Origin: Candidatus Moraniibacteriota bacterium
GTDB lineage: Bacteria; Patescibacteriota; Minisyncoccia; Moranbacterales; GWC2-37-73
Length of the DNA stretch: 64,000 nt
Assembly: GCA_028715015.1 (NCBI GenBank)
Contig: JAQTLF010000001.1
Span: 29,243-93,242, forward strand
Reading direction: 5' to 3'
Shown one piece after another: positions 23,721 through 61,321 of the stretch (the first letter of the stretch is position 1; every line of letters begins with the position of its first letter). Under the pieces are notes generated by a model. The model was not told the origin of the DNA. It ran no database searches and saw only the letters and a program-made list of their open reading frames with translations. The position numbers and the translations under genes were made by a program.

Positions 23721-23723
23721 AAG

Positions 23724-24805: not shown

Positions 24806-24852
24806 ATCTGCCACACAATGTTCTATGTTTTATGCTCTATGTTATGTGTTAT

Positions 24853-25245: not shown

Positions 25246-25287
25246 TTTATTATCTTGCTCTATGCTTTATGCTCTATGTTATGTGAT

Positions 25288-28048: not shown

Positions 28049-28149
28049 ATATTTTAGTCAAAAGTCTATCAAGTCTATCAAGTCTATCAAGCTAATGCAT
28101 TTCTGCTTTATGGACTTTATGGACTTTCGACTTTATGGACTGCTATTAT
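28049..28149 (-). repeat. ~95-bp composite repeat element, copy B (AAGTCTATC x3 variant)
   Basis: the same substitution is present in all three tandem units of this copy (concerted variant). Confidence 0.9.
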
Positions 28150-28392
28150 TTATGCTATTACTGTGTGACTTTTGTCTTTGCTGATAGGTCGGCATTGGAT
28201 AAATTCAACCTTGTCACCTTTCTTGAATTTATTTTCCGCATCATGAACCTTGTATTTCTTGGTTGAGCGGTATTTTTTCAAATATTTCGGATGAGTTTTC
28301 AATGATTCAACGGCCACAACGATTGTTTTGTCCATCTTATCACTAACAACAACACCTTTCTTCTTTGCTAAATTTTTGATTATGTTTGCCAT
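28150..28392 (-). CDS. rpsQ: 30S ribosomal protein S17
   Basis: S17 OB-fold family sequence; operon position. Confidence 0.95.
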   Translation of the reverse strand: MANIIKNLAKKKGVVVSDKMDKTIVVAVESLKTHPKYLKKYRSTKKYKVHDAENKFKKGDKVEFIQCRPISKDKSHTVIA

Positions 28393-30482: not shown

Positions 30483-30585
30483 AAATGTTAGTCAAAAGTC
30501 TTTCAAGTCTTTCAAGTCTTTCAAGTCAATGCATTTCTGCTTTATAGACCTTATGAACTTTATAACTTTATGGACTGGATATTAC
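30483..30585 (-). repeat. ~95-bp composite repeat element, copy C (more diverged 3' half)
   Basis: AAGTCTTTC x3 + aatgcatttctgc + TTTATAGAC/TTATGAACT/TTTATGGAC. Confidence 0.85.
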
Positions 30586-30927
30586 TTATTTTTTCTTTGC
30601 CGGGGTATCATTTTTTGCAGCCTTCATAGCATCTTGCTGCTTTTGTTTTGCAGCTTGTTCCATTTCTTTCTGCATCTTACCTCCATGTCTGTTGAATTTG
30701 CGAGTTGGAGCAAATTCTCCAAATCTGTGTCCAACCATTTCTTCAGTTACATACACAGCGGTGTGCTCTCTTCCATTGTGAACTCCGAATGTAAAACCGA
30801 TCATTTCAGGTGCGATTGTGCAAGCTCTGGACCAAGTCTTGATTGTTCCTTCGCCAGGCTTAGCATTGATAACTTTTTTCATCACACGTGGGTCCACATA
30901 CAACCCTTTCTTTAAACTTCTTGACAT
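30586..30927 (-). CDS. rpsS: 30S ribosomal protein S19 with a basic C-terminal extension
   Basis: [13 protein letters not shown]-terminus; [13 protein letters not shown] core. Confidence 0.95.
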
Positions 30928-30983: not shown

Positions 30984-31814
30984 CTATTTCTTAATCCTTC
31001 GTTTTACAATAAATTTATCACTATATCTGTTCTTCTTTCTTGTTTTCTTTCCAAGTGCTGGTTTTCCCCAAGGAGTTTTCGGATATTTCAAACCGATTCC
31101 TTGTCGTCCTTCTCCTCCTCCATGTGGATGATCAACAGGATTCATGGCTGATCCGCGAACTTCCGGTCTCTTTCCCTTCCATCTGTTTCTTCCAGCCTTT
31201 CCGAGTTTTTCTGCACTATGTTCAAAATTGCTAACTCTTCCGATTGTGGCATAGCATTCTTTGCTTACCAATCTGATCTCACCTGATGACATCTTAAGTT
31301 GTGCCATTTTGTCATCGATAGCCATCAATGTTGCTCCGCTTCCGGCGCTGCGAGTGATCTGTCCACCTTTTCCAGCAATCAATTCGATGTTTGAAACAAC
31401 TGTTCCTGATGGAATGTTTTTAAGAACTGTGCGGTTTCCTTTTTTGATCGGCGCATCAACTCCTGTCATAATTTCCATCCCGGCTTTCATACCTTCAGTC
31501 GCAAGCACATATTTTTTGTCCCCATCAATATATGAAATAAGACAGATAAGGGCGCTTCTGTTTGGATCCTTTTCCACAGAAACGATACGTCCAAGGACAC
31601 CAAATTTCTGTTGCTTGAAATCAACCAAGCGATATCGACGCTTGTGACCTCCACCTTGATGACGAGTTGAGATTTTTCCATGAGATCTTCCTGCTTTCTG
31701 TGTCATTGGTGCAAGCAAGGATTTTTCAGGTTTTTTGTCTGTCAAATTGTCAGGTTTAACAATAGACATGTTTCGCCTTCCTGCTGTATTTTTCTTGTAT
31801 ACTTTAATTGCCAT
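30984..31814 (-). CDS. rplB: 50S ribosomal protein L2
   Basis: GRNRWKGKRPEVRGSAMNPVDHPHGGGEG motif. Confidence 0.95.
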   Translation of the reverse strand: MAIKVYKKNTAGRRNMSIVKPDNLTDKKPEKSLLAPMTQKAGRSHGKISTRHQGGGHKRRYRLVDFKQQKFGVLGRIVSVEKDPNRSALICLISYIDGDKKYVLATEGMKAGMEIMTGVDAPIKKGNRTVLKNIPSGTVVSNIELIAGKGGQITRSAGSGATLMAIDDKMAQLKMSSGEIRLVSKECYATIGRVSNFEHSAEKLGKAGRNRWKGKRPEVRGSAMNPVDHPHGGGEGRQGIGLKYPKTPWGKPALGKKTRKKNRYSDKFIVKRRIKK

Positions 31815-31898
31815 AATATTTTTTAGGTTTTAGCTTTTTAGCCTTTAGCTTTTCAGGAAAAACCTGAGAAGCTTAGAAGCTAATGCCTGAACAGCTAT
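31815..31898 (-). repeat. octamer AAAAAGCU-type repeats abutting the rplB start
   Basis: sense GAAAAGCTAAAGGCTAAAAAGCTAAAACCTAAAAAATATT-ATG. Confidence 0.7.
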
Positions 31899-43356: not shown

Positions 43357-44082
43357 TTATTTTTCCCTGTGTTTCAATTGGATTTCTGAAAACAGTTCGC
43401 CTTGCTCAACATGGATCATCCTTTGCTTCACCAGTTCCAGCATGGCCAAAAATGAAACCACCACTTCAACTTTGTCTTTCGCATTTGCCACCAATTCGGA
43501 AAAAGATGTTTGGATTTTTTCGCGCAATGTTTCTTGCAGATGGACAATCCTGTCTTCCAAGGTGAGAATTTCTTTAACCATATCCTCTTCCAATTTTTCC
43601 ACCACTGGAATTTCTCCCAAAACCTTATTGAAAGCTTTCAACAGATCATCGGCGGTGATGTTTTCCGGAGGATAAAAAACTGTGCCCAGTCCTGAAAAGC
43701 CTTCGCGTGAAAAACTTGTCTGGGTTGAGTCGAACAGTGAAGCCAGATTTTTGCTGGCTTCTTTGAATTTTTTGTATTCCGCCAATTGATGTTCCAGATC
43801 TTTGATTTCTTCCTCCTCTTCTTCAGTAAATTCCAGCATCGGCAAAAGAGCTTTTGATTTTATCAAAATAAGCCTGGCAGCCACCGACAAAAAATCAGCC
43901 AGGTGTGCCAAAGTTATATCCTTGGCCTGCGCTATGTATTCCAAATATTGATCCGCGATTTGTGCCAGACTCACCCTGGTGATGTCCAGCTTCTCCTGTT
44001 CAGTGAGCTGCAACAGCAAATCAAGCGGACCTTCGAATTGTTCAAGTTTTATGTGATATGCCATAAATATTTCAATAATCAA
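43357..44082 (-). CDS. scpA: segregation and condensation protein A (kleisin)
   Basis: LEQFEGPLDLLLQLTEQEKLDITRVSLAQI N-terminal motif. Confidence 0.85.
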   Translation of the reverse strand: MIIEIFMAYHIKLEQFEGPLDLLLQLTEQEKLDITRVSLAQIADQYLEYIAQAKDITLAHLADFLSVAARLILIKSKALLPMLEFTEEEEEEIKDLEHQLAEYKKFKEASKNLASLFDSTQTSFSREGFSGLGTVFYPPENITADDLLKAFNKVLGEIPVVEKLEEDMVKEILTLEDRIVHLQETLREKIQTSFSELVANAKDKVEVVVSFLAMLELVKQRMIHVEQGELFSEIQLKHREK

Positions 44083-45338
44083 TCAGCCAGCTCATATTCC
44101 AAATCAAGTTCAGCTTCACTTTTGTTGTCAACCAATCTTATTGCAGGATAAAGTCCGATCAAAACCAAGCCAGCCACCAACAAAAATATGTACTTCATCG
44201 GAGCGATGATGAGCAGCATCGCTGAAACTCCAGTGGCCACCATATAGGCAACCGCTCTGGTGGTGCGAAAAAAACTTATAAGATCGACATCGCGTCCATC
44301 GATTTTTTTGTAAAAATATGAATCTCTCAGTGTTTCGACCGTAGCAGCCCCGATGCGTGTGGACAAAAGCACCAATGACCAAACAACGATTGAAACGGAA
44401 TGGATGAAAAAAATGGAAGCGGATGATACGCCCATCAAGAGCAAGCCCATGATGATCATTTCCTTTTCCCCGAATTTTTTGTCAGCCAAAAACCCTATCG
44501 GATATTCCAAAACGACAAACGGAATCAGCATCACCGTGAAAACGACACCGATTTGTTGCCATGAAAGTCCCAGATCAAGCAGGTACAAAGGCGTGTAGAC
44601 AATCATCAAGGCATAGAAAGCTTCCAATGCGAGTGAAATCACATAGATGTTCAGCACATCTTTGTTGGTCAGAATTTTCAAACCGACATCTTTGATGGTG
44701 AGCTGACCGCGAAATTTTCCACTGACATCACTGAGTCCGATCAAACCGATCACAAACATGACAACATTGAGCACCAATGTTGCAACAAACAGACCATCAA
44801 AACCGAAGTCGGAAAGAATTTTTGTCGAAAGAAACGGCCCCAGCAAAACTCCCGCACTCAAAATCATCAAATGAAATCCGCGTATTCTGCCGGATTTTTT
44901 ATCCTCTGAATATTCCTCAATGATGACATCCAGAATGACCCAGACGAAATAGTTGGCGACGATGTAGAGCATCAAAAAAATTATGCCCAAAAGCGACGGC
45001 TTGATGAAAATCAAACCGACCAAAAAACATATCTGCGCGAAAAAAAACAAGAAAAATGACATGGCCTTGCCTATTTTTTTGACAACCTTGTGCATGTTAA
45101 GCAAACCGATCAAAGCAATCACATAAGTTATGAAATAGAAGGAGCTGACATTTTCATTGCCAAGAGCATTTCGGAAATAATCCGAAGTGACATAGAGCAG
45201 CAATGCTTGCGCAAATCCGAACAAAAAAGAAATCAGACCCAAAAGTTCCAATTTCTTTTTCCCGTTTTTCTTGCTTTTTACTTGTTTTTTGTTGGCCATT
45301 TTTTTATTTTTATTCACCAATAATGAGGTCATGCACAA
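44079..45338 (-). CDS. MFS transporter (track start is TTG; ATG candidates at ~45332 or MANKKQ)
   Basis: 12-TM major-facilitator topology. Confidence 0.75.
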   Translation of the reverse strand: MCMTSLLVNKNKKMANKKQVKSKKNGKKKLELLGLISFLFGFAQALLLYVTSDYFRNALGNENVSSFYFITYVIALIGLLNMHKVVKKIGKAMSFFLFFFAQICFLVGLIFIKPSLLGIIFLMLYIVANYFVWVILDVIIEEYSEDKKSGRIRGFHLMILSAGVLLGPFLSTKILSDFGFDGLFVATLVLNVVMFVIGLIGLSDVSGKFRGQLTIKDVGLKILTNKDVLNIYVISLALEAFYALMIVYTPLYLLDLGLSWQQIGVVFTVMLIPFVVLEYPIGFLADKKFGEKEMIIMGLLLMGVSSASIFFIHSVSIVVWSLVLLSTRIGAATVETLRDSYFYKKIDGRDVDLISFFRTTRAVAYMVATGVSAMLLIIAPMKYIFLLVAGLVLIGLYPAIRLVDNKSEAELDLEYELAD

Positions 45339-45508
45339 TATATGGTTTCAAATATTAACTTTTGTTTTTTGCTTTGCCTGTTTTCTTTTGAGGCCATCCG
45401 CAGCGAGAGCAAGGACGAGCGAGCAATCATAGTTCTTCGATTGCGAAGCGTGCCGAAAAAGGAAATAGGCAAAGCAAAAAAAGTCAGAGAAAACTATATA
45501 TTGCGCAT
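45332..45508. mobile_element. MITE-like element copy 1 (~177 bp, imperfect 15-17-bp TIRs, GC-richer core)
   Basis: about 90% identical, in inverse orientation, to 59965-60144; the TIR resembles TGCACAATATATGG ... CTATATATTGCGCA. Confidence 0.75.
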
Positions 45509-45583
45509 TAACCCAATAATGCTGTTTTATAAGTTGTCACTGAAGAATCAAATCTGAGAAATGATTCTTCAGTGACACAAGTT

Positions 45584-46999
45584 CTAGACGATCTTCTTTT
45601 TCTTGGTGACAATTTTGATGCCAGCTTCAACAAGTTGCTTTTCATCCAGAACGCTTGGCGCTTCCATCATCGGATCTTCCGCTTCCCCGGTCTTGGCAAA
45701 AGCGATGACTTCACGGATGTTCGGTTCATTTTGCAAAATCATCACCAAGCGGTCGATTCCTGGTGCAATTCCTCCGTGCGGTGGAGCGCCATATTTGAAA
45801 GATTCAAGCATGTGTCCATAGTCACGTTGCACATTTTCTTCGGAAATTCCCATGATTTCCAAAACCTTGCGCAAAGCTTTGGGCTCATGATTCCTGATGC
45901 TTCCTCCGCCTGCTTCATATCCATTGAGCACGATGTCATATTGGGTCGTCAAAATGTCAGCGATGTTTTCCTTGTTCATAAGTTGCTCCATGAATTCAGG
46001 CTTCGGACGTGAAAACGGATTGTGTGTGAATGTCCAACCAGTCGATGATTCCTCATCTTTTTCAAAAAATGGAAAATCAACCACCCAACAGAATGCCAAA
46101 AGATTCGGATCATTCTTGTCTTCCCTGATGTCAGGTTTGTCATTGCCATATTTTTCCATCGATTCTTTATATGACAAACGCGGGAATGGTATTTCCTGGA
46201 TTCTTTTTTCCGGAAATTGTGTCTGCACCAGTTTGATCAACATTTCTTCCACCACATTCATCACGTCTTCCTGCTCCACAAAACTCATCTCCATATCCAA
46301 TTGAGTGAACTCCGGTTGACGATCACCGCGAGTGTCTTCGTCTCTGAAACATCTGGCGATTTGAAAATATTTTTCAATTCCAGCCACCATCAGCAACTGT
46401 TTGTATTGTTGAGGAGATTGTGGCAAAGCATAGAATTTTCCTTTGTAAATTCGTGATGGCACAACATAATCCCTTGATCCCTCGGCCGTGGTCTTTCCTA
46501 AAATCGGAGTTTCAACTTCGATGAAACCTTGTTCTCCCAAGAAATCCCTGAAGAATTTGACCACTTTGTATCTGGTCAAAATGTTGTTTTTCATTCTCTC
46601 CGATCTGAGATCAAGATAACGATATTTCAAGCGCAATTTTTCATCAACTTCCTTGGTGTCTTTGGTTATTTCAAACGGTGTGGTTTTGGCTTCATTCAAA
46701 ATTTCTATGGAAGTAACTTCCAATTCGACTCCGCCTGTGGGAGATTTTTCATTCTTGGCGCTCATCGGACGCTCCTTCACGATTCCCTCCATTTCAATCA
46801 CAAACTCGTTTCTGAGTCTTTTGGCGTTGTCATGAGCTTCAACATGATCGGGAATAATGACAGTCTGGATGATTCCGCTGCGATCACGCAAATCAACAAA
46901 AATCAATTTTCCATGATCTCTGCGGATGTGGACCCAACCGGCCAATTTGACGGTCTTTCCAATAAACTTAGGTGTGTCGATAATGTTTGTTCGTTGCAT
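45584..46999 (-). CDS. aspS: aspartyl-tRNA synthetase (compact, 471 aa, non-bacterial-type length)
   Basis: N-terminal OB domain; class II motifs; FRDEDTRGDRQPEFTQLDMEMSF; GAPPHGGIAPGIDRLVM. Confidence 0.9.
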   Translation of the reverse strand: MQRTNIIDTPKFIGKTVKLAGWVHIRRDHGKLIFVDLRDRSGIIQTVIIPDHVEAHDNAKRLRNEFVIEMEGIVKERPMSAKNEKSPTGGVELEVTSIEILNEAKTTPFEITKDTKEVDEKLRLKYRYLDLRSERMKNNILTRYKVVKFFRDFLGEQGFIEVETPILGKTTAEGSRDYVVPSRIYKGKFYALPQSPQQYKQLLMVAGIEKYFQIARCFRDEDTRGDRQPEFTQLDMEMSFVEQEDVMNVVEEMLIKLVQTQFPEKRIQEIPFPRLSYKESMEKYGNDKPDIREDKNDPNLLAFCWVVDFPFFEKDEESSTGWTFTHNPFSRPKPEFMEQLMNKENIADILTTQYDIVLNGYEAGGGSIRNHEPKALRKVLEIMGISEENVQRDYGHMLESFKYGAPPHGGIAPGIDRLVMILQNEPNIREVIAFAKTGEAEDPMMEAPSVLDEKQLVEAGIKIVTKKKKIV

Positions 47000-49859: not shown

Positions 49860-51101
49860 CTATTTGTTCAACATTTGCAATAGAGCTTCAACTGTCATGA
49901 TTTTGCTTTCGTTTTCGCTGCGTTTTTTCACTTCAATTCCGCCAGCCGCCAAAGATTTTTTGCTCACCACAATGCGCCATGGGATTCCGATCAGGTCACT
50001 GTCGGCAAATTTTTCTCCGGCGCTTACCTCGCGATCATCAAGCAAAACTTCAATTCCTTTGCTTTTTAGTTCAGCATAAATCTTTTCCGCTTCCTCGTTT
50101 TCACCAAGATTCAAAAGATGCACTGCAAACGGAGCAATGTTTTCAGGCCACACCAGACCTTTGTCATCAGCAAACAGCTCCGCAACAACACCCATCAGAC
50201 GACTGACACCGATTCCATAACAACCCATCACAATTGATTGCTTTTCGCCATTCTCATCACTGTAATACAAATCCAATGCATTCGTATATTTGGATTCCAA
50301 ATGAAAGGTGTTTCCAACTTCAACACCTTTTTTCTGCACCAATTCATCTCGCTTAAGATCAAGCTTTTCCAAATTTTCATCAGTCAATATTTCTTCATTG
50401 ATGGCAACTCGTTTTTTTTCATCAACATAAATCGTGTCCTCACCAACTTCACTCAACGTTTGAAATTCATCACTAAAGCGAGGCGTAAAAATTCCACCAT
50501 CAGCATAAGTCCGATATGTTATATCACCCAGTCCCAATCTGTCGTAAACCTTATAATATGCTGCCACAATCTTTTCATATTCTTGCTCATGCTGAGCTTG
50601 ATCGCGACAAAATGTGTACATGTCTTTCATTAAAAATTCGCGACCGCGCAGCAATCCACTTTTGGCACGTTTTTCATTTCTGAATTTATTTTGAATCTGA
50701 TATACCGCAAATGGCATATCCTTATATGAATTCAGATAGTTGCTGACCGCATCAACAATCGGTTCTTCATGAGTGAGTCCCACTCCCAGTTCCGCACCGT
50801 TGGCAAGCTTGGTTTTGAACCAATTGTCGACTTTGGCATCATCCCAACGATCTGTCTTTTCCCAGATCTCTTTTGGCTGCAAAGTTGTCATCATGAGCTC
50901 TTGCCCACCGACAGCATTCATTTCTTCGCGCACAATTTTTTTGATATTTTCCAATACACGCAAGCCTAGTGGCATGTAAGCATATACGCCCGCCATTTCC
51001 TTGTGAATAAAACCAGCCCTAATCAAGAGCTGCGCATTTTTGGCAACCTCATCAGATGGCGCTTCTTTTTTAGTCCTGGTGAATAATTGTGATTGTTTCA
51101 T
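49860..51101 (-). CDS. proS: prolyl-tRNA synthetase (compact, 413 aa, no editing domain)
   Basis: LLIRAGFIHKEMAGVYAYMPLGLRVLENIKKIVREEMN class II ProRS N-terminus. Confidence 0.8.
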   Translation of the reverse strand: MKQSQLFTRTKKEAPSDEVAKNAQLLIRAGFIHKEMAGVYAYMPLGLRVLENIKKIVREEMNAVGGQELMMTTLQPKEIWEKTDRWDDAKVDNWFKTKLANGAELGVGLTHEEPIVDAVSNYLNSYKDMPFAVYQIQNKFRNEKRAKSGLLRGREFLMKDMYTFCRDQAQHEQEYEKIVAAYYKVYDRLGLGDITYRTYADGGIFTPRFSDEFQTLSEVGEDTIYVDEKKRVAINEEILTDENLEKLDLKRDELVQKKGVEVGNTFHLESKYTNALDLYYSDENGEKQSIVMGCYGIGVSRLMGVVAELFADDKGLVWPENIAPFAVHLLNLGENEEAEKIYAELKSKGIEVLLDDREVSAGEKFADSDLIGIPWRIVVSKKSLAAGGIEVKKRSENESKIMTVEALLQMLNK

Positions 51102-51179
51102 AAAAAAAGTTTATAAAGTTATAAAGTTCGTAAAGTTTATCAAGCAATAGCAACAAATTCAAGTCTTATTGCAAACAAA

Positions 51180-51632
51180 CTAATTTTTGATTTTTTCAGC
51201 CAATTTGGCAAGCTCTGCGTCGTCAGCTCTTTGGGAATCGTGCGTCGAGATGTAACCGGGATATTTTTCAAAATATGTCTCGATGTCGGACCCTATGGCT
51301 TGCCAGTTGTCCATTTTTGTTCCATGCATCGGAAAAAGTTTGGCATGCACATGGTCAACTCCGAAACCTTCAAAAACCAACGCTGTCCTGCCCACATCTT
51401 CCAATTTTTCATCCAAAATCTTGGCCACCTCACGAGCTGCTTCCACCAATTCAACTCTAACCTCTTTGGACAAATCAAAAACATAACTTGAATAATGCTC
51501 TTTAGGAATGACAACTGTCACACCTTCAGTGTTGGGAAAAATGGAAAGAAAAGCCAAGAATTTTTCATTTTCCCAAACCTTGTGACTTGGAATTTCACCC
51601 TCGACAATTTTGCAAAAAATACAGTCCGACAT
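51180..51632 (-). CDS. HIT-family (histidine triad) hydrolase
   Basis: HVHAKLFPMHG (HxHxHxx) motif. Confidence 0.85.
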   Translation of the reverse strand: MSDCIFCKIVEGEIPSHKVWENEKFLAFLSIFPNTEGVTVVIPKEHYSSYVFDLSKEVRVELVEAAREVAKILDEKLEDVGRTALVFEGFGVDHVHAKLFPMHGTKMDNWQAIGSDIETYFEKYPGYISTHDSQRADDAELAKLAEKIKN

Positions 51633-51642
51633 AGGTTTTGTC

Positions 51643-52896
51643 TTATTTGAGAAATTTTAGTTTTACAAAGCCAAGCTTTCCTATCTTGAAAACTTTTCCG
51701 TCATGTGAAGAATCGATCATCGCATTTGTGTCAGTGATTTTCTCGCCATCAACACTGACTCCTCCTTGTTCAACCTTGCGACGCGCATCGCCCATGCTGG
51801 TTGCGTTTTTCGATTCAACCAATAATTCCAACAATTTTATTTCTTTGCCATCAATTTCAAACTCAGCAACTTCATCAGGAATTTCCTTATTGGAAATGGT
51901 TTTGACAAAATATTCTTTGGCTTTTTCCGCCACATCTTCGCCATGGTAGATCTTCACAATTTCTTTGGCCAAATCCAGTTTCGCATCGCGAGGATTCAAA
52001 ATCCCGCCAGCCATGTCAGCTTCAACTTTTTTCACAATTTCCATCGGCACGCGGGTGCAATGGATGTAATATTTCACAATCAGATCATCCCCCATGCTCA
52101 TGACTTTTCCAAACATGTCATTCGGCTGATCCATAATCTTGATCACATTTCCCCAACTGGAACTCATCTTTCTTCCATCAAGACCTTCGATCAGATTCAA
52201 CATCAACACGTCTTGCGGTTTTTGCTGATAGCGTCTTTGCAATTCGCGCCCTGCCAAAAGATTGAAACGTTGGTCGGTTCCGCCAATTTCCAAATCGGCT
52301 TTCAGCACCACGCTGTCATAACCCTGCATCAAAGGATACAAAAGTTCGCGAAGTGAAATCCTTTTTCCTTCATCCAATCTTTTTTTGATGTTTTCACGCG
52401 CAATAAATTCAGCCAAAGAAAAAACATCGGCTTGCTCGGAAATTTCTCCATAGGTCAATTTTCCCAGCCACTGCGAGTTTCTCACCACTTCCACCTTACT
52501 CATGTCCAAAATCTTTCCAGCCTGATCCATGTATGTCTTCATGTTCTCGTCCACAACTTTCTGTTCCAACATCGGACGCTCACTGTCTTTGTCTGAAGTA
52601 TCTCCAATGACACCAGTGAAATCACCGATCAAAAAAACAATTTGGTGACCCAAGTCTTGCAAGTCACGCAGTTTGAGCAGTGCCACGGCGCGACCCAAAT
52701 GTATGCTTGGGCTTGTCGGATCAGTGCCGAATTTGATGCGCAATTTCTCACCAGAAAGAAGTTTTTTTCGCAAACTCTCACAATCAATAACCTCCGCAAC
52801 ACCGCGACTCAAGATTTCATCCACAATTTGCTCTTTGGTTTTCATATTTTTAATCATTGCTTTTAGTTTAATATGGTCATATTCAAAAGAAAACAC
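51643..52896 (-). CDS. tyrS: tyrosyl-tRNA synthetase
   Basis: HIGH-like PTSPSIHLGRAV; KMSSS; C-terminal S4 domain. Confidence 0.9.
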   Translation of the reverse strand: MFSFEYDHIKLKAMIKNMKTKEQIVDEILSRGVAEVIDCESLRKKLLSGEKLRIKFGTDPTSPSIHLGRAVALLKLRDLQDLGHQIVFLIGDFTGVIGDTSDKDSERPMLEQKVVDENMKTYMDQAGKILDMSKVEVVRNSQWLGKLTYGEISEQADVFSLAEFIARENIKKRLDEGKRISLRELLYPLMQGYDSVVLKADLEIGGTDQRFNLLAGRELQRRYQQKPQDVLMLNLIEGLDGRKMSSSWGNVIKIMDQPNDMFGKVMSMGDDLIVKYYIHCTRVPMEIVKKVEADMAGGILNPRDAKLDLAKEIVKIYHGEDVAEKAKEYFVKTISNKEIPDEVAEFEIDGKEIKLLELLVESKNATSMGDARRKVEQGGVSVDGEKITDTNAMIDSSHDGKVFKIGKLGFVKLKFLK

Positions 52897-52954
52897 AAAT
52901 CGAACATAACCCGTTTAATATAGCCATAATAGCAAATTTTTGCCTTTTTGCAAA

Positions 52955-52984
52955 CCAAAACAGCCTTGATTGGCTGTTTTGGTT
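52955..52984 (-). terminator. bidirectional intrinsic terminator downstream of the histidine kinase
   Basis: AAAACAGCCttgattGGCTGTTTT. Confidence 0.65.
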
Positions 52985-53006
52985 GTTTCAAATTCATTTT
53001 TTATTT

Positions 53007-54731
53007 TCATGCCACATGCACAACTGGAATTTCAATCATAAATTTTGAACCCTGTCCGGCGCCGTCTGACTCAACCCAGATCTGACCGTGGTGGGCTTCA
53101 GCAATGGCTTTGCCCACAAAAAGACCCAGACCGGTGCCACCAACATGCAAGCGCGACACGTCTTTGCCGCGTGAAAACTTTTTGAAAAGATATGGAATTT
53201 CTTCTTTGGGAATTCCGATGCCAGTGTCGGAAACCGTGATGCGGACAACTTTTCCAAATTCTGATTTCTTTTCAGGAATCACAAATCCGTTTTCATCAAC
53301 AACAACGCCTTCATTTCTGATTTCGACGCGAACAGTCACTCCGCCTTTCTCTGTGTATTTCAAAGCGTTGTCAATGAAATTGGAAACGAGCTCGCGGATT
53401 TTAGCACCGTCCATCACGATTTCAGGAAGCGGTGTTTCGGGCAATTTCAAATCCAGATAGAATTGTTTGTTTTTGGCAATCAAAAGAAAATTGTCACGAA
53501 GTTCGCCAAGCAATTCTTTTATGCTTGCAGCCTTGAAAGAAAAAGTCATGCGACCTGACTCGATACGCGAAACATTCAGCAGATCTTCAATCAGATTTGT
53601 CAGGCGTTCGGTGGAAATGTATATTTTGTTCAAAGCTCCATGCACGCTCTCGCTGACCTCTCCATATGAACCTTCCAAAAGAAGCGAGGAAAAACCTTTG
53701 ATGGCAGTGATCGGAGTCCTGAGCTGATGAGAAGCGATCGAAATGAATTCCGTCTTAGCATTGTCCAATTTTCTCAGCGAATCATTGGCCTGCGCCAATT
53801 TGCTTGCCATAAGCTGAAGCTCTTCTTTTCTTTCAACTTCCTGTTTGACACTTCGAATAAGCGCAATTCCGATGCCGCCAACCAAAACCAAAGTGACACC
53901 AGTCAAAACATTGCTGGTCATGTTTTGCGCAAAGAAAAATTGGGAACCAACCAAAGCAACCAACGACACAACCAACGCTTGGGCACCGATAAGTTTTATC
54001 TTGAATGCGTGATATTGGACAATCAGATATGCAAGAAAACTCATGAATATTGTCATGCCGAAAAGACCATACACCTCCAAATTAAAATTATCAATCGCAC
54101 TAGACAAATAGCCAGTAATAAAAAAGGAAAACAAAAACAATTCAACCCCGACAGCCAACAACAATATCTGCTTTCTATTCCCCTTCGGTGCTTTTTTATA
54201 TCTGTCTATTATTACAGCCAAAATCCAAAAGAATATACCCAGACCCACAAGATAATAATAATTGGTAAAATATTGACCTTCTTTTGCTTCACAATTAGCG
54301 ACATCGAATCCCGACAGATTCAAATGTGATGGCGTCAATACCACCAAAGGAAGAAAAAGCAAAATGAACACGATTTTTTTGCCAACAGATATATCCTTCT
54401 TATCAATATAGACATACACAAAATACAGGCACAGCGTGAAAATCAACAAATCCAAGATTCCCAACAGGGACCAGGAAAACATAAGCACCCTGCTGTCATA
54501 TCTTGTCCAGATGGCAAGATCAAAAAAAGACCAAAGAGAGAATGCGATTGTTATTGCAAATAAAATCTTAGCAACCAGGTCTTTTTTGTTTTTAAAATAG
54601 ACAAAAAAGCCGATCAGCAATGACAAAATCGCTGTTGGCACATGTGAATAATAAACAAATTTAAGAAAATCAGCATTTTGACTTACGAAAGTAAAGCATG
54701 ATTCCAATTTTGTCACAAGGTTAAAATCCAT
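53007..54731 (-). CDS. sensor histidine kinase with an N-terminal ~7-TM sensing domain
   Basis: H-box SHQLRTPITAIKGF; N, G1 and G2 boxes (GGTGLGLFVGKAIAEAHHGQI). Confidence 0.9.
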   Translation of the reverse strand: MDFNLVTKLESCFTFVSQNADFLKFVYYSHVPTAILSLLIGFFVYFKNKKDLVAKILFAITIAFSLWSFFDLAIWTRYDSRVLMFSWSLLGILDLLIFTLCLYFVYVYIDKKDISVGKKIVFILLFLPLVVLTPSHLNLSGFDVANCEAKEGQYFTNYYYLVGLGIFFWILAVIIDRYKKAPKGNRKQILLLAVGVELFLFSFFITGYLSSAIDNFNLEVYGLFGMTIFMSFLAYLIVQYHAFKIKLIGAQALVVSLVALVGSQFFFAQNMTSNVLTGVTLVLVGGIGIALIRSVKQEVERKEELQLMASKLAQANDSLRKLDNAKTEFISIASHQLRTPITAIKGFSSLLLEGSYGEVSESVHGALNKIYISTERLTNLIEDLLNVSRIESGRMTFSFKAASIKELLGELRDNFLLIAKNKQFYLDLKLPETPLPEIVMDGAKIRELVSNFIDNALKYTEKGGVTVRVEIRNEGVVVDENGFVIPEKKSEFGKVVRITVSDTGIGIPKEEIPYLFKKFSRGKDVSRLHVGGTGLGLFVGKAIAEAHHGQIWVESDGAGQGSKFMIEIPVVHVA

Positions 54732-54748
54732 ATTTTTTATGTTTATTT

Positions 54749-55621
54749 TTATTTCTTATCAATAACGGCTAATATTTTTTCATCATATGCCCTGGCCTTC
54801 AATATGTTTTCATTGCCATCACCGTGCAATCTCACAATTATTGGCTTCAAATTGAATTCTTTGAAAACGGCGGAGAAACTTGGCAGAACTATTTCGTGAG
54901 TAAATTTGTTTTCATTTTTATTTTCCAAATAATCTTCAAACAAAATCCCAAAACAAACAAACAAGGCGAAAAATCGCTCATAATACAGCGAGGGTTTTTT
55001 ACCGTTACTTTTTATCCATTCTGATGCGTCAATTATTTGACAATCACCATCTTTCAAGAAAAAATTCAGCAATCTATGATGGAAATCTATAAAATTTTCT
55101 CCGCTCAATGTTTTCATTTCATGCAAAAAAGCGCCTTCCGATAAATTAAAATCGATAATATTTTTATTGCTCCTATTCTCACAAACATTCTTATTGCCTG
55201 ATTTGCAAAAAAAGACCATTTTGCCTAAATAATATTTATCCTCATTTTCAGCCCTGAATTTATCACTCAAATATTCCAAACAAACAGGATTCAGTCCCGC
55301 ATCCTTGGCCAAATCCAAATATCTGATTAATTCATTGTTGGGGCTTGCAATATGACGAGCCAAAACTGCTTTTGGACCATCGTGAAAACATCCAGGGATG
55401 TTCCCATTTAAATATTTTTCAACCTTTTTTCTCAATTCCTTATCATTCCATCTTTTCCAAACTTCCTCCTTTGCATCTGGCAATGCCATATACAAAGCAT
55501 CGACTGACAAAACATCCTCACTGTTGTTAATTTCATCCTTAACATCTTTTGATTCGGCAACACCGCAAGAAAAAAGTGACCTTATGGGTTTTAATAATAT
55601 ATCAATCATACAAAACATCAT
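54749..55621 (-). CDS. hypothetical protein (290 aa, no recognisable domain)
   Basis: ORF only; its start abuts the stop of the upstream gene. Confidence 0.45.
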   Translation of the reverse strand: MMFCMIDILLKPIRSLFSCGVAESKDVKDEINNSEDVLSVDALYMALPDAKEEVWKRWNDKELRKKVEKYLNGNIPGCFHDGPKAVLARHIASPNNELIRYLDLAKDAGLNPVCLEYLSDKFRAENEDKYYLGKMVFFCKSGNKNVCENRSNKNIIDFNLSEGAFLHEMKTLSGENFIDFHHRLLNFFLKDGDCQIIDASEWIKSNGKKPSLYYERFFALFVCFGILFEDYLENKNENKFTHEIVLPSFSAVFKEFNLKPIIVRLHGDGNENILKARAYDEKILAVIDKK

Positions 55622-56173
55622 TTAGAAAAATTTTATTACAGTTTCTTTCAATGTCGACACAGCGACAAATGCGATGCCCGTCCACCAAACATTTGAAACT
55701 ATGGTACTTCCCAAAAATATTTTCCAATCTCTCCTGGTCAGCCCATTGTACAAATGATATCCCGGCCTCATATATATTGAGGTTATGAGCGGATCAAAAT
55801 GAATAGAAAGAAAAAGAAACTGACCGATCTTATTTTTGTGAAAAAGCCAATACATCATCCTTTTTCCAGTTCTTCGCCAACTTTTTTTGGCAATATCTTC
55901 CTCTTGTTTGAAAAAATTCTCCACCAATTCCTTTACTGCCTCAATACCCAGCCAGTCTTTTTCCAGAAGATCATAAACCCACAAAATAAAAAGACAAATT
56001 ACAGTTGCAAGAATTCCCATCACGATCCCACCCAAAAGCGGACCATATTTATATATAACAAACGGATATAAAACATAGTCGAACGCATAGTCAAAAGAAT
56101 TGAACACAACCAACCCGATTGCCAATATTTTCAGATTAAACTTTCTTATCCATTCAAACTTCATAAGTTTCAA
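55622..56173 (-). CDS. hypothetical 4-5-TM membrane protein
   Basis: ORF only; tightly coupled to its neighbours. Confidence 0.45.
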   Translation of the reverse strand: MKLMKFEWIRKFNLKILAIGLVVFNSFDYAFDYVLYPFVIYKYGPLLGGIVMGILATVICLFILWVYDLLEKDWLGIEAVKELVENFFKQEEDIAKKSWRRTGKRMMYWLFHKNKIGQFLFLSIHFDPLITSIYMRPGYHLYNGLTRRDWKIFLGSTIVSNVWWTGIAFVAVSTLKETVIKFF

Positions 56174-56644
56174 TCATTCATTTGGGTTATTGCCACCATC
56201 CTGGGCAGCCACACATTCAGCATCATCCTCTTGGCAAGTTGCAGTTTCATCGGCAGCTGGGTGATCGATATTGTATTGCTCGGGATCGCTGCATTCCCCA
56301 TCTTTTCCGACCGTCTTTTCGTCGCAAAAAGTGGTGGCGCATTCTTTTTCTCCTTCAGGGCAAACCAGGGCCTTACAATTTTCATCAGCCGGGTCGCAAA
56401 GCGGGATGTTAGCTGCGTTTCTTTGGATAAGTTTATAGTATGAAGTGTCTTGCTCGGCGTCGCCTGTGCATGTTTCAGTGGCGGAATCACAATAATAGAT
56501 GAAACATTTTTCCGTGGTCGGATCACAATCAGCCTGTGCTTCGACCAAATAATCTTTCTTGATCATGATCCGCCAATATGTCACCCCGATAGAACCGACA
56601 ATCAAAATTCCCAAAACCCACAGCAGCAATTTGTTTTTGTTCAT
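56174..56644 (-). CDS. membrane-anchored, acidic, cysteine-rich extracytoplasmic protein
   Basis: N-terminal TM anchor; 16 Cys and high Asp/Glu content in ~125 aa. Confidence 0.5.
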   Translation of the reverse strand: MNKNKLLLWVLGILIVGSIGVTYWRIMIKKDYLVEAQADCDPTTEKCFIYYCDSATETCTGDAEQDTSYYKLIQRNAANIPLCDPADENCKALVCPEGEKECATTFCDEKTVGKDGECSDPEQYNIDHPAADETATCQEDDAECVAAQDGGNNPNE

Positions 56645-58657: not shown

Positions 58658-59899
58658 TTGATTATAATATACATGCATAGCAGAAACTTTAAGGCGGGCA
58701 GTTCACGCCCTCCGCGCTCAAGAGCGCCATTCCAAGGTGGACGAAAAAATCCTTTCAATAATGGCGGTGGAAGTGGACGCAAAAAGCGCTTCACTGGAAA
58801 CTACATCGACGTCAGCAGATTCATCAACAAGGCGGTTCCGCAAGTTGCTGAAGAAAAATATGTTCCTGATACGATTTTTGCTGATTTCAAAATAGAAGAG
58901 TCCATCAAAAAAAATATTGCTGCTCGCGGATTTGAACATCCGACTCCGATCCAAGACAAGACCATTCCTCACATTCTGGCTGGAAAAGATCTGATCGGAC
59001 TTGCCAACACAGGAACCGGAAAAACAGGAGCTTTCCTGCTTCCGATGCTTGATAAGATCATTAAAAATCCCAACGAGAAATTGTTGGTGGTTGTGCCGAC
59101 ACGAGAATTGGCAATCCAGATCCAGGAAGAATTCCGCGCTTTTGCCGCCGGTCTTCGAATCGGCAGCGTGGTGGTTGTCGGTGGAGCCAACATCCGCACC
59201 CAGATCGAGTGTCTGCGCTCACGCTACAATGTTGTCATCGGAACACCAGGACGTTTGAAAGATCTAATCCAACGCAAAAATCTTCATCTCAATTCTTTTG
59301 CCAATGTGGTGCTTGATGAGGCTGACAGAATGTTGGACATGGGATTCATGCCTGACGTGCGATATCTGCTTTCACTCATTGCTCCAAAAAGACAGACTTT
59401 GTTTTTCTCAGCCACCCTTGCTCCGGAAATTGAAAAATTGATCCAGGAATTCTTGAATGACCCGGTTAAAATTTCCATCAAGACCCGCGAAACATCTTCC
59501 AACATCGATCAAGATGTGGTGAGAGTGAAACCAGGCGAAGACAAGATCGAAGTTTTGCAAGACCTTCTCAGAAAAGCGAATTTTTCCAAAGTTCTGATTT
59601 TTTCCCGCACCAAACACGGAGCAGAAAAACTTTCAGTGATTTTGAGCAAAAACGGATTCAAAGCACAATCGATCCATGGAGACAAATCCCATGCCAAACG
59701 TCAGAAAGCTTTGAAATTGTTCAAGGAAAACTATGTCGAAATTTTGGTTGCCACTGATGTGGCCGCCCGAGGATTGGACATCCCTGATGTTTCCCATGTG
59801 ATCAACTTCGATGTTCCTGCCACCTATGATGACTATGTCCACCGCATCGGACGAACCGGACGAGCCGGCAAAACTGGAACGGCGCTGACATTTGTCTAA
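58658..59899 (+). CDS. DEAD-box ATP-dependent RNA helicase with an RG-rich N-terminal tail (track start is TTG; the ATG for MHSRNF lies 15 nt downstream)
   Basis: Q-motif; GLANTGTGKT; DEAD (VLDEADRMLDMGF); SAT; HRIGRTGRAG. Confidence 0.9.
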   Translation: MIIIYMHSRNFKAGSSRPPRSRAPFQGGRKNPFNNGGGSGRKKRFTGNYIDVSRFINKAVPQVAEEKYVPDTIFADFKIEESIKKNIAARGFEHPTPIQDKTIPHILAGKDLIGLANTGTGKTGAFLLPMLDKIIKNPNEKLLVVVPTRELAIQIQEEFRAFAAGLRIGSVVVVGGANIRTQIECLRSRYNVVIGTPGRLKDLIQRKNLHLNSFANVVLDEADRMLDMGFMPDVRYLLSLIAPKRQTLFFSATLAPEIEKLIQEFLNDPVKISIKTRETSSNIDQDVVRVKPGEDKIEVLQDLLRKANFSKVLIFSRTKHGAEKLSVILSKNGFKAQSIHGDKSHAKRQKALKLFKENYVEILVATDVAARGLDIPDVSHVINFDVPATYDDYVHRIGRTGRAGKTGTALTFV

Positions 59900-59913: not shown

Positions 59914-59948
59914 CAAAAAAAGAAGTCTCGCTCGAGACTTCTTTTTTG
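59914..59948 (+). terminator. rho-independent terminator
   Basis: A-run, GAAGTCTCGCTCGAGACTTC, T6. Confidence 0.7.
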
Positions 59949-59964
59949 TTGAAATTTATTGGTT

Positions 59965-60144
59965 CATACGCAATATATGGTTCTCTCTGACTTTTTTGCT
60001 TAGCCTATTTCCTTTTTCGGCACGCTTCGCAGTCGCAAGACCATGACTACTCGCTCGTCCTCGCTGTCGCTGCGGATGGCCTCAAAAGAAAACAGGCAAA
60101 GCAAAAAAACAAAAGTTAATATTTGAAATCATATATTGCGTATG
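59965..60144. mobile_element. MITE-like element copy 2 (180 bp, perfect 15-bp TIRs CATACGCAATATATG)
   Basis: TIRs at 59965-59979 and 60130-60144; sub-terminal inverted motifs TTTTTTGCTTAGCC / GGCAAAGCAAAAAAA; GC-rich core. Confidence 0.8.
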
Positions 60145-60151
60145 AGCCAAA

Positions 60152-61321
60152 TTATTTTCCTGAAAGAATCTTGTTTATGACATTTTCATCCTGGCAAGAA
60201 TAGGAATTGTCAGGCGAATAGAATTTCTTTTTGGGCCCCCTGCAACCATTGTTTTCATTGTTGATGACACCGAACATGGGCATCATGAAGCCGGTTTTTC
60301 TGGTTGAAAACTTTTTGTACAAATTTTTGAGAGTTTGGGCTCTTGTCGACTGATCCATTCTGGCGAATATGTCCAGATCGTCACTCAAGATGCCAGTCCA
60401 ATCCAAATTCAAAAGCACATTGTTGGCTTTGCTGGAAAATTGGTCATTCCAAAGGAGCGCCCAACAACTTCCCCTGGTTGAAAGGCAAGCTCCGTCTTCC
60501 ACATTTCCTTGCGAATCAATGCCGACTCCGCCTTCGACATAGTCAAAAAGTTTGAGATATTTTTCATCGGTGATGTCGCCTGTCTGCGCCCCGATGATGA
60601 TGTCCACGCCTTGCTGACTGGCATAGTCGCGCATCTCCTGCACAATTTTGGGAGCAAAATCTTTGCTACCGCCACCCTCCTGCATATATATCTGTCCGAA
60701 AGTGAAACTCTGAACGCCAAGATCGATGGCTTTTCGTGTTATGTATTGCAAATATCTGCGATATTCCTTGCTGGAAAAAGTCGGTTTGCAAGTTCCCTCT
60801 CCCCAAGCATTGTTGCTGCCATCGCGACACATGGCTTTGAAATCAAATTCGTGACCGCTGTCAGCATCAGCATAATCACTTCTGACATTGATGGCTTCAG
60901 CGATGAACATGCCGAAGACCACATCTTTTTTGGTGATTTTATTCATGATATATTCCGCCTTCAAAAAATCTGGCGGAGTGAGCCATGTTTCGATGGATCT
61001 GTGCAAATAATAACAATTGGATCTGTTTATCAGATCGATGAATTTGTCATTTTCAGGATTGTATTCACTCAAAAGTCCGTCAGCCACACAGCCTTGGGAT
61101 TTTACTCTGTCCATGGAAACCGGCAAAGGTTTTGGTTTTTGCAAGATTTCAAATCTGGCCGCGATTGCTGCCTGATCATCAACTGGAACCGGTTGGGCAG
61201 CCTGGGCATTGTCGATGTTGATACTCTTAGTGCTTTCCTTGCCAAAGAAAAACCAGCCCGCAACAGAAATTGCCAGCAAAGAAAAAAACGAAACAAAAAA
61301 GATTATTTTTCCTTTTTTCAA
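60152..61321 (-). CDS. hypothetical secreted protein (possible TIM-barrel glycoside-hydrolase-like fold)
   Basis: signal peptide / TM at the N-terminus; 389 aa; no motif recognised (track start is TTG). Confidence 0.5.
   Translation of the reverse strand: MKKGKIIFFVSFFSLLAISVAGWFFFGKESTKSINIDNAQAAQPVPVDDQAAIAARFEILQKPKPLPVSMDRVKSQGCVADGLLSEYNPENDKFIDLINRSNCYYLHRSIETWLTPPDFLKAEYIMNKITKKDVVFGMFIAEAINVRSDYADADSGHEFDFKAMCRDGSNNAWGEGTCKPTFSSKEYRRYLQYITRKAIDLGVQSFTFGQIYMQEGGGSKDFAPKIVQEMRDYASQQGVDIIIGAQTGDITDEKYLKLFDYVEGGVGIDSQGNVEDGACLSTRGSCWALLWNDQFSSKANNVLLNLDWTGILSDDLDIFARMDQSTRAQTLKNLYKKFSTRKTGFMMPMFGVINNENNGCRGPKKKFYSPDNSYSCQDENVINKILSGK

What the first reader, a model, noticed from the sequence alone, without database searches (positions are those of the whole stretch)
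59965..60144. A MITE-like element with perfect 15-bp terminal inverted repeats, present in two copies
The 180-bp element at 59965-60144 has perfect TIRs (CATACGCAATATATG), sub-terminal inverted motifs (TTTTTTGCTTAGCC / GGCAAAGCAAAAAAA) and a GC-rich core that can fold (CGCAGTCGC...GTCGCTGCG). A ~90% identical copy in inverse orientation lies at 45332-45508, where its TIR abuts the start region of the MFS transporter. No transposase is encoded, so this is a non-autonomous element.
Basis: seen in the sequence. Interest (0 to 1): 0.5.

Follow-up and report, generated by a model that had tools for sequence, protein, structure and literature searches.

The report
New MITE family in CPR bacterium
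The two 188-bp repeats are copies of a small non-coding jumping element (a MITE) that is spread through the genomes of a group of uncultured Parcubacteria-like bacteria; it is a sound but fairly ordinary find, and its one unusual feature is a Y-shaped folded centre that is better conserved than its ends.

Summary
Both window copies are 188 bp: copy A at 59961-60148 (+) and copy B at 45326-45513 (-). They are about 89% identical. Each copy is flanked by an 8-bp AT-rich target-site duplication (TSD): CAATAATG 8/8 for B, AATTTATT/AAATTATT 7/8 for A.

The genes flanking the two copies are unrelated, so this is not a segmental duplication. One metagenome scan plus a covariance model found about 26 further copies, all intergenic and in both orientations. 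They come from related Parcubacteria-like metagenome contigs. Across 11 full-length copies, 69 of 88 TSD positions match, against 37±4 in controls. Five syntenic relatives lack the element between AspRS and the MFS gene.

No transposase or IS with matching ends was found in about 320 kb of held sequence, so the mobilising enzyme is unknown. Nothing in Rfam, plasmids or phages matches.

One less ordinary feature: the central ~118 nt folds into a Y-shaped three-way junction. Many compensatory changes preserve it, it is better conserved than the TIRs, and it also occurs as TIR-less short copies. Coxiella QMITE2 shows the same full-size/small pattern.

Verdict: a new member of a known kind.

The parts
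59961..60148 (+). MITE copy A, full length, 188 bp. The canonical orientation is the strand carrying TTTTCGGCACGCTTCGCA.
   Evidence: Ends were defined by the family alignment and the TIR regex. nhmmer E = 1e-69. Whole-element hairpin -78.6 kcal/mol, z = -9.2.
59953..59960 (.). Left target-site duplication of copy A (AATTTATT)
   Evidence: Matches 60149-60156 at 7 of 8 positions.
60149..60156 (.). Right target-site duplication of copy A (AAATTATT)
59961..59982 (+). Left TIR of copy A, GGTTCATACGCAATATATGGTT
   Evidence: 20/22 complementary to 60127-60148.
60127..60148 (-). Right TIR of copy A (reverse complement GGCTCATACGCAATATATGATT)
59992..60108 (+). Conserved ~118-nt core of copy A. P1 is the long stem 59993-60107. 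P2 is the hairpin 60029-60050. The P3 region follows.
   Evidence: Covariance model R1 scores 115.8 bits.
45326..45513 (-). MITE copy B, full length, 188 bp, inverted relative to copy A
   Evidence: 88.7% identity to copy A.
45318..45325 (.). Target-site duplication of copy B (CAATAATG)
   Evidence: Identical 8/8 to 45514-45521.
45514..45521 (.). Target-site duplication of copy B (CAATAATG)
45326..45347 (+). TIR of copy B next to the MFS gene (AGGTCATGCACAATATATGGTT)
45492..45513 (-). TIR of copy B next to AspRS (reverse complement GGTTAATGCGCAATATATAGTT)
45365..45481 (-). Conserved core of copy B. Its minimum-free-energy fold is the Y-shaped three-way junction.
   Evidence: R1 scores 128.3 bits. 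Fold.
58673..59899 (+). Context: DEAD-box helicase gene upstream of copy A
   Evidence: Pfam DEAD and Helicase_C. The exact protein is found on Logan contig L088, which ends inside the element.
59916..59947 (.). Context: terminator-like hairpin of the helicase gene. The MITE target site lies just downstream of it.
44079..45299 (-). Context: MFS transporter gene. Its start codon is 26 nt from copy B.
   Evidence: Pfam MFS_1. The start is confirmed by the relatives' ATGGCAAACAAAAAAC.
45584..46999 (-). Context: class II Asp/Asn-type tRNA synthetase on the other side of copy B. A hairpin at 45535-45577 lies between the gene and the element.
   Evidence: Pfam, homologues, sequence.

Best explanation
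The element is a miniature inverted-repeat transposable element (MITE). It is 188 bp and non-coding, with 22-bp terminal inverted repeats (family consensus GGRTCAYACGCAAYAYATGGTT).

Inferred mechanism: a DDE-type transposase supplied in trans binds the two TIRs and inserts the element by an 8-bp staggered cut. The targets are AT-rich sites in short intergenic spacers. Repair of the staggered cut leaves the 8-bp direct repeats seen at both window copies.

Between the TIRs lies a ~118-nt core. It folds into a long stem (P1) capped by two hairpins (P2, P3), giving a Y-shaped junction around the conserved sequence GGCACGC.

Shown here: the ends, the TIRs, the TSDs, multiple copies at unrelated intergenic sites in several related Parcubacteria-like genomes, absence at orthologous sites in relatives, and structural conservation of the core.

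Inferred only: the DDE mechanism and the identity of the transposase. Any effect on neighbouring genes is also only an inference. Copy B places a very stable hairpin between the AspRS terminator and the MFS start codon.
For: - Two copies are about 89% identical and homology ends at the element boundaries. Flanking genes are unrelated.
- TSDs: copy B 8/8, copy A 7/8. Over 11 full-length copies 69 of 88 TSD positions match. Flanks re-paired between copies give 37.0±4.0 (maximum 51), and right flanks shifted by 1-3 nt give 28-45.
- A metagenome scan with an 18-mer from the core gave 24 true loci (22 distinct copies). They come from samples Ga0209319/Ga0209318, Ga0209000, Ga0076206 and Ga0172374 and from 8 AMFJ01 contigs. 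A covariance model found 4 more diverged copies.
- Copies within the Ga0209319 group are 92-97% identical to each other at different loci.
- All copies are intergenic and occur in both orientations relative to neighbouring genes.
- Five syntenic contigs from relatives have AspRS-to-MFS spacers of 39-120 nt with no element; AspRS is 95% identical in protein and about 77-80% in DNA. The window's spacer is 285 nt.
- A more distant relative carries a copy at a different place in the same gene block (L033/L080).
- Both Logan contigs of the window's own strain stop inside the element, as assemblies do at repeats.
- Size, TIR length, TSDs, AT-rich intergenic targets and a stable stem-loop all fit the published definition of prokaryotic MITEs (PMC10969869).
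Against: - No autonomous partner was found. The TIR motif occurs nowhere else in the window or in the roughly 284 kb searched for it, namely the window plus the copy-bearing loci.
- No IS-sized repeat is shared among the held loci.
- The two viral-contig hits to the TIR are chance matches; the one examined lies inside an ORF.
- Only two copies lie in the 64-kb window, and the copy number in this genome is unknown.
- Empty sites could not be aligned base by base because the relatives' spacers are too diverged.
- The core is better conserved than the TIRs, the reverse of what an actively transposing family would show. This suggests most copies are relics or that the core is under a separate constraint.
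Confidence: 0.9

Rival explanations
1. The ~118-nt Y-shaped core is a selected functional module in its own right: a structured RNA, or a single-stranded or cruciform DNA site. The MITE is then its vehicle, or the core has been exapted by the host. This reading is compatible with the MITE explanation. It differs only in what matters biologically.
For: - 96.3% of pair cells are standard pairs. 13 pairs (41 cells) carry changes on both sides. No shuffle reaches the observed values for four of the five measures (1 of 500 for the fifth), and no slid register comes near them.
- Diverged copies keep GGCACGC, GCTC and a CTGTCG-type loop. The stems are replaced by different sequences that still pair. 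P2 is GCAATC/GATTGC, or TTTTGGA/TCCAAAA, or CTTGATC/GATCAAG. P3 is AATTGC/GCAATT in L010b.
- Single-sequence folds of six copies independently give the same Y shape.
- The core is 88-97% identical where the outer arms have fallen to 26-60%.
- TIR-less core-only copies persist in the AMFJ01 genome.
Against: - There is no strand signal: G-U pairs on the given strand number 17, and A-C cells (G-U on the other strand) number 16.
- Orientation relative to co-directional neighbouring genes is mixed, about 9 the same and 4-6 opposite.
- No promoter or intrinsic terminator lies in or at the element. In either orientation the hairpin is followed by an A-run, not a U-run.
- No Rfam family matches at E up to 10 apart from generic miRNA-hairpin noise.
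- Covariation between inverted arms is also expected if both arms must bind one transposase. It would also arise if hairpin mismatches are repaired.
- The compensatory changes come from a few subfamily-level events, not many independent ones.
Confidence: 0.2
2. The 188-bp element is a composite. A REP-like ~118-130-nt palindrome inserted into, or was captured by, a minimal ~50-bp TIR-only MITE. The short TIR-less copies would then be the original unit.
For: - In the Ga0209319 subfamily the core plus 12 nt is bracketed by a direct repeat, CTTTTTGAAA. This breaks the inverted symmetry just inside the 22-bp TIRs (alignment).
- Core-only copies with no shared flanks occur in the AMFJ01 contigs.
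- Coxiella QMITE2 likewise has full-size copies with TIRs and direct repeats, and small REP-like copies without either (PMC5896051).
Against: - The internal direct repeat is only partly present in the window copies (CTCTCTGAC versus TATTTGAAA).
- At least one AMFJ01 copy (L008) and L033 keep recognisable diverged TIRs, so the short copies can be trimmed relics.
- A shorter, diverged ~135-bp subfamily has related TIRs (AGGACTTACGC...GCGTAACATCC) directly flanking the core with no spacer.
- 8/8 flank matches found by scanning, such as TAATTCTG in L002, are expected by chance about once per copy in AT-rich DNA. That figure is my own estimate.
Confidence: 0.15
3. Segmental duplication or ectopic recombination copied the sequence between the two loci without transposition.
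For: Only two copies lie in the window, and they are inverted.
Against: - Flanking genes and flanking DNA are unrelated, and similarity stops at the TIR tips.
- Each copy has its own, different 8-bp duplication.
- Dozens of copies exist at other loci in related genomes.
Confidence: 0.01
4. The element is a REP/BIME-type element spread by a RAYT transposase, or an IS200/IS605-derived palindromic element (PATE).
For: The overall shape is palindromic, the location is intergenic, and TIR-less short versions exist.
Against: - From established knowledge of those families, neither mechanism produces target-site duplications. REPs are 20-40 nt, and IS200/IS605 elements lack TIRs.
- This element has 22-bp TIRs and variable 8-bp TSDs.
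Confidence: 0.03

Closest known systems
QMITE2 of Coxiella burnetii (PMC5896051; figure legend in PMC10969869)
   Same: The architecture is almost the same. QMITE2 is 150-190 bp with TIRs of 23-29 bp, variable direct repeats of 7-11 nt and a core of 113-145 bp. Its transcript folds as a very stable hairpin, and it sits in intergenic or 3' regions. It also exists as full-size copies and as small REP-like copies that lack TIRs and direct repeats. The same pattern is seen here in the 188-bp copies and the ~118-nt core-only AMFJ01 copies.
   Different: The host phylum is different (Gammaproteobacteria versus Patescibacteria). No GTAG REP motif or IS1111 association is seen here. Sequence relatedness to QMITE2 was not tested. 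The Y-shaped junction with covarying P2 and P3 is described here and is not taken from that paper.
Correia elements (CREE/NEMIS) of Neisseria
   Same: Based on my own knowledge: they are about 100-160 bp non-coding elements with ~26-bp TIRs, highly folded as RNA, abundant in intergenic regions, and have no known cognate transposase in the host.
   Different: Correia elements duplicate a TA dinucleotide. This family makes 8-bp duplications. There is no sequence similarity, and the host group is unrelated.
IS families that make 8-bp duplications and have GG-initiated ends (IS1, IS6, ISL3, IS256, IS1595 groups, ISH6, ISMich2/ISKra4)
   Same: TSD length of 8 bp and TIR tips beginning GG. This comparison rests on my recollection of the ISfinder family summaries and is a lead, not a test.
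   Different: No transposase gene or full-length IS with the TIR GGRTCAYACGCAAYAYATGGTT was found, so no assignment can be made.
Tn3-family derived MITEs (TIMEs)
   Same: The tip GGGTCACACGC resembles the Tn3 end GGGGTCTGACGC (my recollection of that sequence).
   Different: From established knowledge, the Tn3 family has ~38-bp TIRs ending in TAAG and makes 5-bp TSDs. This family has 22-bp TIRs and 8-bp TSDs. The resemblance is probably coincidental.

Membership tests
Prokaryotic MITE (definition in PMC10969869, section 2.1) | Short (<500 bp) with no coding capacity for a transposase | tested here: met
   188 bp. The copies differ by 1-nt indels, and the whole length is a hairpin.
Prokaryotic MITE | Terminal inverted repeats of about 4-30 bp | tested here: met
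   22-bp TIRs: 20/22 complementary in copy A and 17/22 in copy B. The same TIRs occur in 9 further full-length copies.
Prokaryotic MITE | Flanking direct repeats (target-site duplications) of constant length and variable sequence | tested here: met
   8 bp. Of 11 copies, 4 match 8/8 and 3 match 7/8. In total 69/88 positions match, against 37±4 for re-paired flanks and 28-45 for shifted flanks.
Prokaryotic MITE | Several dispersed copies at non-homologous sites, mostly AT-rich and intergenic | tested here: met
   2 copies in the window and about 26 in related metagenomic contigs. All are intergenic, in both orientations, and the TSDs are about 80% A+T.
Prokaryotic MITE | Presence/absence polymorphism at orthologous sites | tested here: inconclusive
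   The element is absent from the AspRS-MFS spacer in 5 syntenic contigs representing 3 distinct sequences. The spacers are too diverged for a base-level empty site.
Prokaryotic MITE | A cognate autonomous IS with matching TIRs that supplies the transposase | tested here: not met
   No other TIR occurrence in the window or in the roughly 284 kb searched, no IS-sized repeat among the held loci, and only chance hits in viral contigs. Whole genomes could not be searched. This feature is absent for several accepted MITE families and is not strictly defining.
Prokaryotic MITE | Transcript or strand predicted to form a very stable stem-loop | tested here: met
   -78.6 and -84.1 kcal/mol for the two strands, z = -9.2 and -8.8.
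REP/BIME (RAYT-mobilised) | 20-40-nt palindromes, no TIR/TSD, associated RAYT gene | tested here: not met
   188 bp with TIRs and 8-bp TSDs. The window was not screened for a RAYT gene.
IS200/IS605-derived palindrome-associated elements | No TIRs, no TSD, insertion 3' of a fixed tetra- or pentanucleotide | tested here: not met
   TIRs and variable 8-bp TSDs are present.
Any curated RNA family (Rfam 15) | Score at or above the family's gathering threshold | tested here: not met
   The whole window gives 0 matches. Permissive scans of copy A and of a diverged copy give only sub-threshold miRNA-hairpin noise.
Tn3-derived TIME | ~38-bp GGGG...TAAG TIRs and 5-bp TSD | tested here: not met
   22-bp TIRs and 8-bp TSDs.

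The most novel reading that the evidence does not exclude
The conserved Y-shaped three-way-junction core is a functional structured nucleic acid specific to this Parcubacteria lineage. It comprises P1, P2 and P3 around GGCACGC, with a CTGTCG-type loop. It could be an RNA, or a single-stranded or cruciform DNA site. Selection would maintain it after the transposon ends decay, and the MITE would have spread it as a ready-made module through very small, gene-dense genomes.
Probability: 0.15. Interest if true: 0.55.

Novelty: new member of a known kind. Interest (0 to 1): 0.35.

Why it matters
Mobile DNA in Candidate Phyla Radiation (Patescibacteria) bacteria is poorly described. Their genomes are tiny and gene-dense, and full-text searches of the paper library found no paper on MITEs in CPR, Patescibacteria or Parcubacteria.

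A MITE family with clean 8-bp duplications shows that a cut-and-paste transposase has been active in this lineage. The family also gives a marker for strain tracking, and it explains contig breaks in assemblies.

Copy B places a very stable hairpin 26 nt upstream of a transporter gene, so it may affect that gene's expression.

The structurally conserved core, which outlasts the transposon ends, is a concrete candidate for exaptation. It can be tested with metatranscriptomes.

Tried and rejected
- Rfam at gathering threshold on the whole window, and permissive scans on copy A and a diverged copy: nothing meaningful.
- tRNA/tmRNA scan: none.
- blastn ('distant' mode) of the element against plasmids and phages: no match.
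- Genome-contig scan with GGCCTCAAAAGAAAACAGGC: one true relative (L002) and two chance hits.
- The metagenome 18-mer scan also returned about 59 chance hits, most of them inside one common gut gene.
- Viral-contig scans with a core 20-mer and with the TIR: 0 and 2 hits. L089 lies inside an ORF; L090 was judged a chance match from its sequence context.
- Search for a parent IS by fuzzy TIR regex, by the TCAYACGCAA motif, and by all-against-all blastn of held loci: nothing.
- Alternative genetic code (UGA sense, as in Gracilibacteria): rejected. Table 11 already gives roughly full coding density and TGA ends 23 long ORFs.
- Sigma-54 promoter reading of GGCACGC-N-GC: the spacing is wrong (by inspection).
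- Hammerhead, twister or other ribozyme reading of the three-way junction: no Rfam support.
- Outward-facing sigma-70 promoter or intrinsic terminator in the element: none found.
- Base-level empty-site alignment with relatives: the spacers are too diverged.
- The 8/8 'TSD' TAATTCTG around the L002 copy was set aside. Scanning flank windows is expected to give such matches by chance in AT-rich DNA (my estimate).

Full report
**1. Observation**

The inverted second copy near 45.33-45.51 kb is real. Column identity is 90%, and blastn gives 88.7% over 203 nt.

The TIR 17-mer, allowing 3 mismatches, occurs exactly four times in the window. These are the four ends of the two copies. Shuffles give 0.17 expected.

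The whole element is a long imperfect palindrome. It folds at -78.6 kcal/mol on the + strand and -84.1 on the - strand as RNA, with z about -9. As DNA the z-score is -6.8.

**2. True boundaries and target-site duplications**

I aligned the two copies with relatives from metagenomes and located the TIRs by fuzzy matching.

| | Copy A | Copy B |
|---|---|---|
| Position | 59961-60148 (+) | 45326-45513 (-) |
| Length | 188 bp | 188 bp |
| TIR (22 bp) complementarity | 20/22 | 17/22 |
| 8-bp direct repeat | AATTTATT / AAATTATT (7/8) | CAATAATG / CAATAATG (8/8) |

Across the 11 full-length copies with both TIRs, 69 of 88 flank positions match. Re-pairing left and right flanks between copies gives 37.0±4.0 (maximum 51). 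Shifting the right flank by 1-3 nt gives 28-45.

The duplicated octamers differ between copies and are about 80% A+T. This is the signature of insertion by a staggered 8-bp cut.

**3. Not a duplication**

Copy B lies between an MFS transporter gene and a class II Asp/Asn-type tRNA synthetase. Copy A lies between a DEAD-box helicase, after its terminator hairpin, and an unannotated convergent ORF. No similarity extends beyond the element.

**4. Organism**

The best named homologues of the synthetase are:
- ACD_9C00047G0003 (92% identity);
- 'Patescibacteria group' (83%);
- 'Parcubacteria group bacterium GW2011' (74%);
- Candidatus Moranbacteria (70%).

The window is therefore from a CPR/Patescibacteria bacterium of the Parcubacteria type, with about 40% GC and the standard genetic code. 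The exact proteins occur only in Logan assemblies of SRR22315509, on short contigs. Both contigs terminate inside the element, at window positions 45461 and about 60021. Assemblers behave this way at multi-copy repeats.

**5. The family elsewhere**

- A genome-contig scan found one relative, L002. It is identical over the element to AMFJ01002954.
- A metagenome scan with the core 18-mer TTTTCGGCACGCTTCGCA returned 83 loci. nhmmer confirmed 24 of them as true. The remainder are chance coding matches.
- The true copies come from Ga0209319 (8 copies on 7 contigs), Ga0209318, Ga0209000, Ga0076206, Ga0172374 and eight AMFJ01 contigs with neighbouring accession numbers.
- Copies in the Ga0209319 group are 92-97% identical to each other at different loci.
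- All copies are intergenic. They are often wedged into spacers of a few dozen nucleotides, and they occur in both orientations.
- A covariance model of the core found four more diverged copies that lack the 18-mer: L010 1070-1186, L022 7635-7752, L040 3276-3393 and L015 7037-7158. It found none further in the window or in the syntenic relatives.
- Two of the diverged copies have recognisably related TIRs (AGGACTTACGCAAT... and ...GCGTAACATCC) directly flanking the core. They define a shorter ~135-bp subfamily.

**6. Orthologous sites**

Five contigs from relatives keep the order response regulator - AspRS - MFS - ScpA - ScpB. They represent three distinct sequences, and AspRS is 95% identical in protein. 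Their AspRS-MFS spacers are 39, 74 or 120 nt, none contains the element, and the window's spacer is 285 nt.

These relatives are only about 75-80% identical in DNA. The empty site therefore cannot be aligned base by base.

A more distant relative (L033/L080) has the same gene block. Its copy lies after ScpA instead.

**7. The mobilising enzyme**

188 bp cannot encode a transposase. No second pair of TIRs, no TCAYACGCAA motif outside the MITEs, and no IS-sized shared repeat exists in the window or in the held loci. Viral contigs gave only chance matches. Plasmid and phage collections have nothing similar.

An 8-bp TSD and GG-initiated ends are compatible with several DDE families, including IS1, IS6, ISL3, IS256, IS1595 groups and ISH6. 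That is my recollection of the ISfinder summaries and is a lead only. The Tn3 family is excluded because it makes 5-bp TSDs and has 38-bp TIRs.

**8. The core**

The central ~118 nt is 59992-60108 in copy A and 45365-45481 in copy B. It behaves differently from the arms.

- RNAalifold on an unfitted MAFFT alignment of 22 copies predicts a 21-bp P1 closed by two hairpins, P2 and P3.
- Pair counting gives 96.3% of cells paired, 13 pairs with changes on both sides, and 41 such cells. Shuffles give 9.2±2.5 such cells and slid registers give 3-9.
- In the diverged copies the distal P1, P2 and P3 are made of different sequences that still pair. GGCACGC, GCTC and a CTGTCG-type loop stay constant.
- Single-sequence MFE folds of six copies give the same Y shape.
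- The core is more conserved than the TIR arms. Examples are L010 at 88.5% against about 30%, and L042 at 92% against about 55%.
- The AMFJ01 genome holds copies in which only the core is recognisable.

Several results argue against a strand-specific RNA function:
- G-U versus A-C mismatches are balanced, 17 to 16.
- Orientation relative to neighbouring genes is mixed.
- There is no promoter or terminator signal.
- Rfam has nothing.

Covarying inverted arms can also arise without RNA selection. Both ends must fit one transposase, and mismatches in hairpin DNA can be repaired. I therefore treat a selected core as a minority reading (about 0.15-0.2). It is the most interesting open point.

**9. 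Comparison with known elements**

The element meets the published structural definition of a prokaryotic MITE: <500 bp, TIRs of 4-30 bp, direct repeats in young copies, AT-rich intergenic targets and stable stem-loops (PMC10969869).

The closest described analogue in architecture is Coxiella QMITE2. It is 150-190 bp with TIRs of 23-29 bp, variable direct repeats of 7-11 nt and a core of 113-145 bp. It also occurs as full-size copies and as small REP-like copies without TIRs or direct repeats (PMC5896051; figure legend).

Full-text searches found no paper on MITEs in CPR, Patescibacteria or Parcubacteria. A 2024 survey of 183,232 genomes does not mention these groups in its main text.

**10. 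Verdict**

This is a new MITE family, and therefore a new member of a known kind. It sits in an understudied phylum, its transposase is unidentified, and its core is conserved in structure. Interest is moderate to low (0.35).

Noticed in passing
window 27579-27684, 28045-28150, 30479-30584: A second intergenic repeat family of about 105 nt, 79-95% identical between copies. It has internal 9-mer tandem units (GTCTTTCAA x3 ... TTATGGACT x3). It fills spacers between ribosomal-protein genes: L24 at 27277-27582, L14 at 27683-28048 and S19 at 30586-30927. Repeats inside the ribosomal-protein operon are unusual.
   Followed up: partly
window 19604-19765, 21363-21595, 10402-10531: A third repeat family of about 160 nt. 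Two copies are 98% identical over 117 nt and lie in inverted orientation around RuvX (19771-20217) and methionine aminopeptidase (20583-21347). The 21363-21595 copy carries a ~71-nt insertion. A diverged copy lies next to the GAPDH gene. The two inverted copies could allow inversion of the 1.6-kb segment.
   Followed up: partly
window 22233-22296, 23681-23726, 31813-31856; 24763-24841 and 25207-25285: Further short repeats of the TAGCTTCT type, and a 79-nt pair, in the SecY/ribosomal-protein region. The genome seems rich in small intergenic repeats.
   Followed up: no
L022 4278-4407, 4882-5025, 8322-8452; L015 9324-9457; L081 2796-2928: An unrelated repeat family of about 125 nt is shared by the metagenomic contigs that carry the MITE. 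Copies are 82-89% identical.
   Followed up: no
L008 1546-1732: One AMFJ01 copy of the core has a ~70-nt palindromic insertion inside the P2 region, and it keeps a recognisable right TIR (TTCGTTGTGCATGATCC). This may be a nested insertion of yet another small element.
   Followed up: no
L002 (CAYVME010000025.1): The GTDB representative that carries the element is labelled 'uncultured Bdellovibrionales bacterium'. Its element matches that of AMFJ01002954 with identical scores. The window's relatives are Parcubacteria/Patescibacteria by AspRS. The label may be a mis-assignment or the bin may be mixed.
   Followed up: no
window 44079-45338: The longest table-11 ORF for the MFS gene starts at TTG 45338, inside the MITE. 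Relatives show the real start is ATG 45299 (ATGGCCAACAAAAAAC). An automatic annotation could wrongly extend the gene into the element.
   Followed up: yes
window 49860-56644 compared with L091: Relative to the 469-kb contig of a related genome, the window has several extra kilobases and a different gene order between LytB and the ProRS-like gene. This is a local rearrangement or insertion.
   Followed up: no
window 60152-61321: The 389-aa ORF convergent on copy A has no Pfam match at E up to 0.001. It has an N-terminal hydrophobic segment and several Cys residues. Its function is unknown.
   Followed up: no
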